This document shows positions 30,001-33,000 of a stretch of 64,000 bases of DNA, in pieces. Origin of the DNA: Escherichia coli (GTDB taxonomy: Bacteria > Pseudomonadota > Gammaproteobacteria > Enterobacterales > Enterobacteriaceae); the NCBI RefSeq assembly GCF_024223415.1, contig NZ_CP100500.1; one strand, given 5' to 3'. Position numbers: made by a program. Positions within the stretch are counted from its first letter, which is position 1. The number at the start of each line of letters is the position of its first letter.

Positions 30001-33000
30001 CCTTCAGTTTCAGCCTAAACCATTTATAACTCACCCGAAATAAACGCCCCTCCTTGCGATGTTTTACAAGCCTAACAACATCATCAGAAACAGGAACAAC
30101 CCGACGCTTATTATTTTTTGTGAAATTAAATACAACCTTATTACCGATAATATGTTCCCCCATTAGCTGATATGCTTCATTCCAGCGACAGCCTGTAGAC
30201 AACAAAAGGACAGCCATTCGGTAATAATCTCCCGAACCCTTGCAGATAGAAAGAAACGCACCAATCTCTTCATGATTAAGATAAGCCATCTCTGGGGTTT
30301 TTTCCTTGAGGCGAGGAAGCGACAATACAGGGTTACTACCGTGATATTCACCAATCTCTGCCATAGCCTTTAACGCAGCGCTAAACGCAAAAAGATCATG
30401 GTTGATTGTAGATGCCTTAACCCCTTGATCGAGACGGCGCGATCTATATTCAGCAACCATGCGTTCATCAATCTCGTACATCATAGGGTCACCCATATCA
30501 AGACAAATACACTGGAGGTTATTCAGTCTACGATTCGCGTAATCCTTGTGACGACCTATCAGTAACCACCACGTCGCAATGAAATCGCTTAAATATCGCT
30601 TGTCCAGAAGATTACCGAAAACATCAACAGAAGGGCGATCAGCAAGAACTTCGCGTTCAAATGCTACAGCCAGATTTTTTTTCTCAAACTTCCGACGAAT
30701 GCGCCTTCCCTTACTTCCGTCGGGTCGAATGTCCACAAAATAGCGACCATCTTCGAGCTTCTTAATTGACATAAGAAGACCCTCCAACAGTCCATTCTCC
30801 ATCTTGAAAACAGATAGAGAAAACGTATTCCTTATAAAGAGTTAACCAGTCTGTTTCCCTGATTGGGGTGACGTTGTTTCGACGTGCCCACAGTGTGCGA
30901 GAGCCGGGGCTATTTGCCCGTGTTCTGGGTCGATGCGGTCATACATAAACCAATTCTGATACTTATGAAAACGGGGGTGACCAAATATCTTAATTGCAGA
31001 TTCCAATGTCATCTTAGATTTGTCACGCTCATAGCCGTGATAGGTTGTGTAATTAAGCCCTACTAAATCAACAAATTGCTGTTTTGTTAGCCTTTCCGAA
31101 TCTCGCATGATCGCTAACTTTTCACCTTGAGTATTTGACATATTTACGAGTACTCCATATAGTTACGCAAAAACAACATTCCTAGCCTAAAACGGCAAAA
31201 CACCGTCAAAGGCCGATTAGGCTAAGCAAGCCTCAATCAATGGCAACCTTGGAGTGTATCAAAAAATGGCAAAACAACGAGATTTTGAACAAATCACGAC
31301 ACATCAGCATTGCCGTCTCTATCCATTAGACGGCTACATCACGATGAACGTGTGCAAAATGAGTTCAACGCAGGCTGGACGCATACGTGATATGAGTCTG
31401 AGCGACTTACAACAACAGGAGTTTGTTAGCCCAGAGGAGTTTGCATACATCACGGGGCGCACCTACAAAGCAGCCAAAAACATCATGGACCGAAACGAAA
31501 GCCTGCTTATTAAGGAATACGCCACGCCAGACGCAACACGACCTAAGCGATTTATCAGACTCCAGCACTACTGGGCCGCAATTATCAACAACAAAGCATC
31601 GCTGACACCACGCGAGCATCTATTTATCAATGAGATTCGAAACAACAAAACGCTTTACCGCGAGATGATGAAAATCAATCTCAAGATTCGCGAAGGGCGA
31701 GAAGTCTCGAAAAAAAAACCAAGATACTCCCATCAATCGCAATCAGCGGCATAACACCAAAAGGAGTTTTCCCATGTGCGACCTGAGCAAAGCAGAGCTA
31801 ATTGCAATCATATTGTTTGCCATAGATTTTGGTTTTCTTTTGAGCGGCGCAATTCTCCTTCCTGCAATTAACAGGAAAAATTAATCACCACTGCAAATAA
31901 CAAGAGCCAACAACATGACCCCAAGACAAGTATTAATCTCCAAAAATGATGACATATTGCACTTTCAAGTAAAATACATAATAGCCACAACAAAGGTAGG
32001 AACATCAATCTATATACACTATCAGAATTTCTATCTGGAGAGAGTCTTCGAAACGGAAGGAGAAGCCCAGAAGTTTTTGATACACATAAAAGATTGCATA
32101 GAAGGAAAAATAAGACCAGGGGATCAATAATGCGAAAACATTATTCACAACCATATATCCGTAACAGTGCGCCACGCAGCAATAACCGCTGGAGCCTGCG
32201 CGAAACACACGCAACACCAGGCGGTCACGTTGTAAAACAAACTGGGGAACACACCTGGCTGATTGAGCAGGCTGGACTCGTGATCCACAGATGCAACCGC
32301 AATCCGTTTACCGGAAACCGCATCTTTGCACTGAGCAGCGGCGACAACCAGTTCGGGCAGGGTTTCACGCTACACGAAGCCCTGCGAACTGCCGACCGCT
32401 TAATCGCGGGGCGCAGCTTTCAGCACCCGGATTACTAAAGAAAAGTCGGCTTAATAAGCCCTGAGCCAGTCTTAATAAGACATGAGAGGCGATAAGATGA
32501 AAAGAGCCTACAAAGAAATCGCTAACGACATACTTCAGAATTATCACCTAACCCTTGCGAGCAACGGTGTCGCCTATGATGAGCAATCGTTCCGCGCAAT
32601 GCAGGGTGGGATTCTTGGGCTGTATATCGCCGCCACAGCCAGCGGCGACCTCGAAGCGCTGGCAGAATTAAAGGTTATCTATCCGAAAGAACTTGGCGAA
32701 GACCTGATTAAACCCTATCTCATTGAGGAGCTAGCATGAATATTCTTATCTCGTGGTTAATTCTCATCCTCGCCATTATTTGCGCGGTGGGAATCATGCG
32801 AATTATTAACGGCATTAAAACCATCGAATCATTATTTACTGGCGACAAGCGCCATAAATAAATAACCGGAAATTACCAGAAAGCAAGAAAACATCCGCAA
32901 CGGCGGAGGGATTCCCTTACGCCTGAAATAAGGAGCAGCGAATGAGTAAACCACTAACCAGCATTGAGCGAAAAATTGTTTTTATGAATGTGGCAGGCGT

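What the first reader, a model, noticed from the sequence alone, without database searches (positions are those of the whole stretch)
32736..32861. 41-aa hydrophobic peptide gene missing from the ORF track
A small ORF, translationally coupled by an ATGA overlap to the preceding gene, encodes a single-TM peptide (MNILISWLILILAIICAVGIMRIINGIKTIESLFTGDKRHK). Small membrane peptides in prophage early regions are frequently toxic or regulatory and are routinely missed by size cutoffs.
Basis: seen in the sequence. Interest (0 to 1): 0.3.

Follow-up and report, generated by a model that had tools for sequence, protein, structure and literature searches.

The report
Conserved small prophage membrane peptide gene
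The 41-codon ORF is a real gene, kept intact by selection, for a tiny single-pass membrane protein in the early operon of a P2-like E. coli prophage; public databases already list it as a hypothetical protein and its function is untested, so it is a sound but fairly ordinary find.

Summary
The ORF at 32736..32861 (+) exists exactly as described. It has a GAGGAG Shine-Dalgarno 5 nt upstream, and its ATG overlaps the TGA of the preceding 80-aa DUF4754-type gene (ATGA).

It is a real gene:
- In 99 of 99 related loci the frame is open and the 4-nt overlap is kept.
- Substitutions concentrate at third codon positions, and median dN/dS is about 0.16.
- No other frame stays open.

It is not new to databases. 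RefSeq annotates this exact peptide (WP_029399920.1, hypothetical protein), and phage P88 carries a 37-aa homologue (gp07, "membrane protein"). Some records do omit it, including phage ΦSM and a Salmonella prophage.

The family is very narrow: P88-like Peduoviridae of Escherichia, Shigella, Salmonella and Citrobacter. It always follows DUF4754 and is always followed by a small conserved stem-loop.

The peptide is predicted to have one N-out/C-in transmembrane helix (residues 3-21) and a short amphipathic, basic cytoplasmic tail. It matches no known toxin, holin, defence or regulator family, and there is no conserved antisense partner.

My best guess, which is inferred, is an early-lytic accessory membrane protein that binds a specific partner. 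A membrane-damaging toxin remains possible. Interest is low to moderate.

The parts
32736..32861 (+). 41-codon gene for a small membrane peptide (P88 gp07 family); residues 3-21 (nt 32742-32798) form the predicted TM helix and residues 22-41 (nt 32799-32858) the amphipathic, basic tail
   Evidence: (PGAP CDS WP_029399920.1)
32725..32730 (+). Shine-Dalgarno GAGGAG, 5 nt before the ATG. It is also the left edge of the block shared with a second prophage type (mosaic breakpoint)
   Evidence: the 41-aa clade has AGGAGG-like sites; the 37-aa clade has only GGGGA and so probably leans more on coupling, which is inferred
32736..32739 (+). ATGA start/stop overlap with the upstream gene (translational coupling)
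   Evidence: ATGA in 98 loci and GTGA in 1, out of 99
32497..32739 (+). Upstream 80-aa DUF4754-type gene, the invariable 5' neighbour; predicted three-helix bundle with a disordered C-terminal tail
   Evidence: phrog_2549, 7.9e-17; PF15946, 24.1 bits, below the 27-bit cut-off
32894..32907 (.). Conserved 5-bp stem-loop (UCCGC-N4-GCGGA) 33 nt after the stop codon. It is present in every locus whichever gene follows; the functional strand and role are unresolved
   Evidence: 98.8% of cells paired against 34-64% in slid controls; two pairs with compensatory changes; two G·U variants on the + strand
31135..31163 (+). Predicted early promoter (TTGACA-17-TATAGT, 11/12), face to face with the C repressor gene; inferred source of the transcript that carries the peptide gene
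   Evidence: no + strand terminator-like site lies between it and 32736
32130..32438 (+). DUF4761 gene, a usual but not obligatory member of the same early-operon block
   Evidence: PF15958, 3.2e-45; absent in L007

Best explanation
The ORF is a genuine protein-coding gene of a P88-like (Peduoviridae, Xuanwuvirus-type) prophage.

Shown here:
- It is under purifying selection at the amino-acid level.
- It always starts on the stop codon of a DUF4754 gene.
- It belongs to a narrow family of 37-41-aa peptides (P88 gp07).

Inferred:
- It is transcribed with the early lytic operon from the promoter next to the C repressor gene, so it is made after induction or infection rather than in the quiescent lysogen.
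- It is translated by ribosomes that have just finished DUF4754.
- The peptide inserts into the inner membrane as one helix, with the N-terminus outside and the short basic amphipathic tail in the cytoplasm.
- The specific residues of the helix (S6, W7, A17, I20, R/K22) and a tail motif (I-E-x-[LF]-F-T-G-[DE]) are conserved, not just hydrophobicity, and the family is confined to a few enterobacterial genera. I therefore think it most likely works by binding a specific partner: a host inner-membrane protein, or the co-translated DUF4754 protein, which it would hold at the membrane. That would make it a dispensable early host-modulating factor rather than an unspecific pore.

Confidence that it is a real membrane-peptide gene is about 0.9. 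Confidence in the partner-binding mode of action is about 0.4. The single number given for this explanation, 0.45, is for the whole statement including the inferred mode of action.
For: - Existence and coupling.
- Purifying selection: third-position bias 15 of 22 and dN/dS 0.13-0.2; median 0.16 over 565 pairs; 0.17 for the peptide against 0.28 for DUF4754 on the same pairs.
- Annotated homologues in functional phages: P88 gp07. P88 and ΦSM are active temperate phages (PMC5285337, PMC6456863).
- Early-operon position between cox/C and gpA in more than 10 prophages at different integration sites.
- Predicted early promoter with no intervening + strand terminator.
- TM helix and positive-inside charge distribution.
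- Residue-level conservation, with conservation peaking at a helical period of about 105° (weak, p = 0.055).
- A divergent Salmonella positional orthologue keeps the SW...AI.IVR helix but has a different tail.
- Narrow distribution: about 6 clusters among 1.84 billion representatives; one clear hit among 100,044 species genomes.
- No similarity to toxin, holin or defence families.
Against: - There is no experimental evidence of translation, localisation or phenotype, and no paper mentions the family.
- The same peptide is found behind DUF4754 variants that are only about 38% identical, so the pair does not co-evolve tightly.
- An AlphaFold model of a DUF4754-linker-peptide fusion gave no confident complex (mean pLDDT 64.8, pTM 0.44).
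- Variants with a frameshifted tail occur, including in the complete phage genome PhiR44_2, so the tail may be dispensable.
- Helix-face conservation is only marginal (p = 0.055).
- Strong conservation of a TM helix is also compatible with homo-oligomeric pore formation.
Confidence: 0.45

Rival explanations
1. The peptide is a membrane-damaging toxin or Kil-like host-killing factor. It would oligomerise in the inner membrane, dissipate the proton motive force and help shut off the host early in lytic growth. This resembles type I toxins (Fst/Ldr, Hok, TisB) in effect, though not in regulation.
For: It is small and very hydrophobic (GRAVY 1.03), with one TM helix followed by a charged tail, the same general build as Fst/Ldr-type toxins (the comparison rests on my own knowledge). 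It sits in an operon that is presumably repressed in the lysogen, which would allow a toxic product to be carried. Conserved small residues (A/S13, A17, G19) could support helix-helix packing.
Against: No hit to Hok/Gef, Fst, Ldr or any other toxin family in Pfam or NCBIfam at E <= 1. No known antitoxin RNA was found in Rfam. The only antisense promoter-like site in the window's ORF is absent from homologues. The conserved cytoplasmic motif and the narrow host range fit specific recognition better than an unspecific pore.
Confidence: 0.25
2. The peptide is a superinfection-exclusion or anti-phage factor. It would sit in the membrane and block DNA entry or the development of competing phages.
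For: Small prophage membrane proteins often have this role (my own knowledge). The family is accessory and patchily distributed: only 11 of 50,697 phage records match.
Against: It lies inside the early lytic operon with no promoter of its own predicted and depends on translation of the upstream gene, so it should be off in the lysogen, where exclusion is needed. No PADLOC defence model matches it or its neighbours DUF4754 and DUF4761.
Confidence: 0.12
3. The ORF matters mainly in cis. Its translation, rather than its product, would control mRNA structure, stability or polarity around the conserved downstream stem-loop, in the manner of a leader or arrest peptide.
For: A conserved stem-loop with covariation always follows the ORF, whatever the next gene is. 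Its 3' arm contains GGAGG.
Against: Purifying selection acts on the amino-acid sequence along the whole peptide (dN/dS about 0.16), which cis-acting ORFs do not need. The stem-loop starts 33-47 nt after the stop codon, beyond the reach of a terminating ribosome. It lies about 31 nt upstream of the next ATG, and that gene has its own Shine-Dalgarno, so the hairpin does not sequester that site.
Confidence: 0.05
4. It is a chance ORF or an annotation artefact with no product.
For: It is short, and AT-rich codons are common in it. The window also holds an antisense 42-aa ORF at 32720..32848.
Against: The ORF is open in 99/99 loci, with 38 distinct nucleotide versions among the first 93. It shows third-position bias, a fixed length of 37 or 41 codons and a conserved start context. 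The antisense frame is open in only 15 of the 38 versions.
Confidence: 0.03

Closest known systems
Phage P88 gp07 'membrane protein' (YP_009113050.1) and UniProt 'Prophage membrane protein' entries: an uncharacterised 37-41-aa family
   Same: 59% identical over the shared 37 residues. It holds the same position directly after DUF4754 with a 4-nt overlap, the same downstream stem-loop, and the same early-operon context in P2-like phages.
   Different: The window's version belongs to the 41-aa subgroup with a C-terminal DKRHK extension and a stronger Shine-Dalgarno. No member has a known function.
Type I toxin peptides with an N-terminal TM helix and a charged tail (Fst/Ldr family; also Hok, TisB)
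   Same: Size, single TM helix and charged C-terminal tail (for this peptide; the comparison rests on my own knowledge).
   Different: There is no sequence match, no dedicated promoter, no conserved antisense RNA, and it is translationally coupled inside a long operon.
Small inner-membrane regulator proteins of E. coli (AcrZ, MgtS, MgrB type), and phage TM peptides that bind one host membrane protein (φX174 E binding MraY; SPO1 gp56 binding FtsL)
   Same: Very short single-pass peptides whose helix residues, not just hydrophobicity, are conserved. Their predicted N-out/C-in topology is like that of AcrZ and E (my own knowledge; for this peptide).
   Different: There is no sequence relationship and no partner is known. 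This is an analogy of build only.
Holins and antiholins of P2-like phages
   Same: Small phage membrane proteins.
   Different: Those are late genes in the lysis cassette beside the endolysin. This gene is in the early operon beside DUF4754 and upstream of gpA, and no PHROG lysis family matches it.

Membership tests
P88 gp07 / 'prophage membrane protein' family (uncharacterised) | Significant sequence similarity over the full length | tested here: met
   76-98% identity to eight E. coli variants. 59% and 51% identity to the 37-aa copies in P88 and vB_EcoM-705R2. The profile search recovers only this family.
P88 gp07 / 'prophage membrane protein' family (uncharacterised) | Position immediately after a DUF4754 gene with a 4-nt start/stop overlap, in the early operon of a P2-like phage | tested here: met
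   99/99 loci have ATGA or GTGA; contexts are.
P88 gp07 / 'prophage membrane protein' family (uncharacterised) | N-terminal hydrophobic helix with the S-W and I-[MV]-[RK] motifs | tested here: met
Type I toxin-antitoxin toxins (Hok/Gef, Fst/Ldr, TisB, Ibs, ShoB, DinQ) | Sequence membership in a known toxin family | tested here: not met
   In Pfam and NCBIfam at E <= 1 only chance-level hits appear: DUF6095 (0.14), exosortase K (0.045) and TatA (0.051).
Type I toxin-antitoxin toxins (Hok/Gef, Fst/Ldr, TisB, Ibs, ShoB, DinQ) | Own promoter and a conserved antisense RNA antitoxin overlapping the toxin mRNA | tested here: not met
   Rfam gives no antitoxin RNA here. The minus-strand promoter-like site at 32802-32775 is absent in P88 and L003. 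The gene is coupled to the upstream gene.
Type I toxin-antitoxin toxins (Hok/Gef, Fst/Ldr, TisB, Ibs, ShoB, DinQ) | Growth arrest or membrane damage on expression | not testable with these tools
   This needs inducible expression.
Holin / antiholin / spanin | Encoded in the late lysis cassette next to an endolysin | tested here: not met
   Its neighbours are DUF4761, DUF4754, small hypothetical proteins, an HTH protein and gpA. There is no PHROG lysis hit.
Superinfection-exclusion / lysogenic-conversion moron | Independent expression from the repressed prophage (own promoter and terminator) | tested here: inconclusive
   No + strand promoter-like site lies directly upstream, and the gene is coupled to the upstream gene. 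Consensus scans cannot exclude expression.
Regulatory leader / arrest peptide (SecM, MifM type) | A stalled ribosome opens a hairpin that hides the downstream gene's ribosome-binding site | tested here: not met
   The hairpin is 33-47 nt past the stop and about 31 nt before the next ATG, and that gene has its own Shine-Dalgarno. The whole peptide is under amino-acid selection.

The most novel reading that the evidence does not exclude
DUF4754, the peptide and the stem-loop form one conserved three-part module that travels as a unit through mosaic P88-like phages and constitutes an undescribed early host-takeover device. One version: the peptide recruits the three-helix DUF4754 protein to the inner membrane to inhibit a host membrane machine (cell division, transport or a protease), and the stem-loop sets the module's mRNA end or stability.
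Probability: 0.2. Interest if true: 0.5.

Novelty: new member of a known kind. Interest (0 to 1): 0.25.

Why it matters
Small membrane proteins are the least understood class of phage genes. Several of those that have been studied turned out to be precise inhibitors of host membrane machines. This family is short, strongly conserved and present in thousands of E. coli genomes, including pathogen lineages. It is also carried by two phages, P88 and ΦSM, that plaque on K-12, so it is an easy target for experiments. Still, the gene is already catalogued, its kind is familiar, and nothing in the sequence points to an unusual mechanism. The practical lesson is modest. Annotation of this gene is inconsistent between records, and the window holds another small ORF that RefSeq does miss (31774..31884).

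Tried and rejected
- **blastn against phages:** the 1-kb region found nothing. Only a protein-level search found the phage homologues.
- **Rfam STnc250 hit at 32841-32916:** 23.5 bits against a gathering score of 42. Rejected, because STnc250 is the ypfM small-ORF mRNA of a non-prophage locus (PMC2515195).
- **Hit in a Pricia (Flavobacteriia) MAG:** rejected. It lies inside the antisense strand of a 314-aa gene.
- **DUF4754 scan of species-representative genomes:** found nothing. tblastn of the window's DUF4754 protein against phages also found nothing, because this variant is divergent.
- **Fold search with the DUF4754 model:** only generic helical bundles, none with E <= 0.001.
- **Fusion AlphaFold model of DUF4754 plus the peptide:** no confident interaction. 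Coordinates could not be inspected, so this is inconclusive rather than negative.
- **Antisense 42-aa ORF 32720..32848 and antisense promoter-like site 32802-32775:** neither is conserved.
- **PADLOC, PHROGs, NCBIfam and PDB sequence searches with the peptide:** empty.
- **Literature searches (DUF4754, Xuanwuvirus, P2-like small membrane protein, phage P88):** no functional data.

Full report
**Observation**

The sequence at 32736..32861 (+) is an ATG-to-TAA ORF of 41 codons encoding MNILISWLILILAIICAVGIMRIINGIKTIESLFTGDKRHK. Its ATG shares ATGA with the TGA stop of the preceding ORF, which ends at 32739. A GAGGAG Shine-Dalgarno lies 5 nt upstream, at 32725-32730.

**Setting**

The window carries a P2-like prophage inserted next to glsA. 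A 100%-identical RefSeq locus (E. coli GF60) gives the gene order:
- tyrosine integrase, 29759-30772 (-)
- C-type HTH repressor, 30842-31141 (-)
- then, on the + strand: a 162-aa protein (31266-31754), DUF4761 (32130-32438), an 80-aa DUF4754-type protein (32497-32739), the 41-aa ORF, and two small proteins (32942-33157, 33154-33366)
- a minus-strand 161-aa membrane protein (33407-33892)
- an HTH protein (34136-34690), a 'derepression' protein region, and the gpA replication endonuclease (35677-38166)

A near-consensus promoter (TTGACA-17-TATAGT) lies at 31135-31163, facing away from the repressor gene. No + strand terminator-like site lies between it and the ORF. The structural region is about 77% identical to P88-type Peduoviridae. 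The ORF therefore sits in the early lytic operon. That it is transcribed from this promoter is inferred.

**Is it a gene?**

PGAP already annotates it in RefSeq as WP_029399920.1, hypothetical protein. The exact peptide is recorded on about 995 contigs.

A word-indexed search found eight full-length variants at 76-98% identity, all 41 aa. tblastn against phage records found 37-aa homologues, including P88 gp07 'membrane protein' and a 'putative membrane protein' in vB_EcoM-705R2.

Across 99 loci gathered from RefSeq, assemblies and IMG/VR:
- The ORF is open in every one.
- The start is ATG in 98 and GTG in 1.
- The 4-nt overlap with the upstream stop is kept in all.
- Lengths are 37 codons (78 loci), 41 (20) and one 45-codon variant with a frameshifted tail.

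Among the 38 distinct nucleotide versions counted in the first 93 loci, variable columns fall 20/11/32 on codon positions 1/2/3 (p = 0.005). Median dN/dS is 0.16 over 565 pairs. The two other + strand frames and two of the three minus-strand frames are never open; the third minus frame is open in only 15 of the 38 versions. On identical locus pairs the peptide is more constrained than the upstream gene (dN/dS 0.17 against 0.28). At the nucleotide level it is better conserved than either flank. This is a protein-coding gene under purifying selection.

**A fixed module**

In every locus the gene directly follows an 80-81-aa DUF4754 protein. This holds across prophages at at least six different integration sites and with different genes downstream. 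DUF4761 is usually, but not always, upstream; it is absent in L007.

Both families are very narrow:
- A profile search of 1.84 billion representative proteins returned only about six clusters plus fragments and frameshifted forms.
- Among 100,044 species-representative genomes only E. albertii has a clear copy.
- DUF4754 is likewise almost confined to E. coli, with a few Salmonella and Shigella records.

In a Salmonella prophage with a divergent DUF4754, no small gene was called. Even so, an ATGA-overlapping 50-codon ORF is there (MNCGIPVSVCFSWTVFALSIIAAIAIVRLWRAISKPDKSTDNVINKHNHK). It is followed by the same stem-loop, and hhalign aligns its helix to the family at probability 93.8% over 29 columns. 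The conserved core is therefore the helix plus the juxtamembrane Arg, and the tail can change.

The pair is also shuffled by recombination. The identical peptide gene follows two DUF4754 variants that are about 38% identical, with the breakpoint at about 32725, on the Shine-Dalgarno. Peptide P0013 is likewise found behind two different variants.

**The peptide**

Residues 3-21 form a strongly hydrophobic segment. All basic residues (R22, K28, K38, R39, K41) lie C-terminal to it, which by the positive-inside rule predicts N-out/C-in. Residues 22-36 are amphipathic, with a hydrophobic moment of 0.48-0.65.

Invariant or nearly invariant positions are M1, S6, W7, L10, A17, I20, R/K22, I30, E31 and F34. 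Conservation in the helix peaks at a period of about 105°, but only marginally (p = 0.055).

No Pfam, PHROGs, NCBIfam, PADLOC or PDB family matches. DUF4754 models as a three-helix bundle with a disordered tail (pLDDT 78) and has no informative structural neighbour. A fusion model gave no confident complex.

**Mechanism**

Shown: it is a real gene, it is coupled to DUF4754, it has a single hydrophobic helix, it sits in the early operon, and its host range is narrow.

Inferred: it is expressed early after induction, it inserts N-out/C-in, and it acts through specific contacts of its helix and tail with a partner. I rank the partner-binding modulator model first (about 0.4). The reasons are that selection preserves particular residues and a cytoplasmic motif, that the family is restricted to a few related hosts, and that it lacks everything except the general build of type I toxins.

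The rivals are:
- a membrane-damaging toxin (about 0.25)
- superinfection exclusion (about 0.12), disfavoured by the gene's place inside a repressed, coupled operon
- a purely cis-acting ORF (about 0.05), disfavoured by amino-acid-level selection and by the distance to the hairpin

**What is known**

No paper in the library mentions DUF4754. Papers on P88 and ΦSM establish that phages carrying the family are functional temperate phages, but say nothing about this gene. The gene is thus catalogued but uncharacterised. I file it as a new, uncharacterised member of a known kind, small phage membrane proteins, not as a new kind of system.

**Annotation**

The gene is annotated in RefSeq E. coli genomes and in P88. 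It is missing from the ΦSM record, from phage 520873 and from the Salmonella locus.

**Verdict**

This is a well-conserved, already annotated small membrane-protein gene of unknown function, of low to moderate interest.

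Noticed in passing
window 32894-32907 (with the A-rich tract 32880-32893): A 5-bp stem-loop (UCCGC-AACG-GCGGA, then GG) follows the peptide gene in all 35 distinct downstream sequences, whichever gene comes next. 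Two pairs show compensatory C-G to U-A changes, and two variants are G·U on the + strand (A·C on the minus strand). On the minus strand it resembles a weak intrinsic terminator (stem followed by TGTTTTCTTG). Its role and functional strand are unknown.
   Followed up: partly
window 34757-34831 and 34867-34954 (+): Rfam hits above the gathering score to isrK (59.8 bits) and C4 antisense RNA (79.2 bits). They lie just upstream of the 'derepression protein' gene (35014-35232). This looks like a P1/P7 c4-type antisense immunity or antirepressor control module inside a P2-like prophage.
   Followed up: no
window 31774-31884 (+): A second small hydrophobic ORF sits in the same operon: 36 aa, MCDLSKAELIAIILFAIDFGFLLSGAILLPAINRKN. 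It is 46-49% identical over its full length to a 35-aa CDS annotated in phage PhiR44_2 and called in other contigs. It is not annotated in the 100%-identical RefSeq locus, so this one really is missing from annotation.
   Followed up: partly
window 31915-32130 (+): A 71-aa ORF ends exactly where the DUF4761 gene starts, and it is not annotated in the identical RefSeq locus. Its conservation was not examined.
   Followed up: no
window ~32725: A mosaic breakpoint. A second prophage type, integrated near btuC, shares 99.7% identity from 32725 rightwards but has a different DUF4754 gene to the left. The recombination junction therefore falls on the peptide gene's ribosome-binding site.
   Followed up: partly
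window 33407-33892 (-): A 161-aa protein with hydrophobic segments is encoded on the opposite strand inside the early region (phrog_6315, 2e-49; weak, non-significant SLATT_4 similarity). It looks like an inserted moron and is present in only some relatives.
   Followed up: no
L099 2456-2593 (phage PhiR44_2); also proteins P0016, P0018: Variants of the peptide carry a frameshifted C-terminal tail of 45 aa, caused by a 1-nt length change in a T-run near the 3' end (CGCTTTTTCACT). These are either sequencing errors in the homopolymer or viable tail-replacement variants.
   Followed up: partly
L101 2740-2892 (Salmonella enterica CP191473.1): An uncalled 50-codon positional orthologue of the peptide overlaps the DUF4754 stop by ATGA and is followed by the same stem-loop. 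Its transmembrane helix is conserved but its tail is unrelated.
   Followed up: yes
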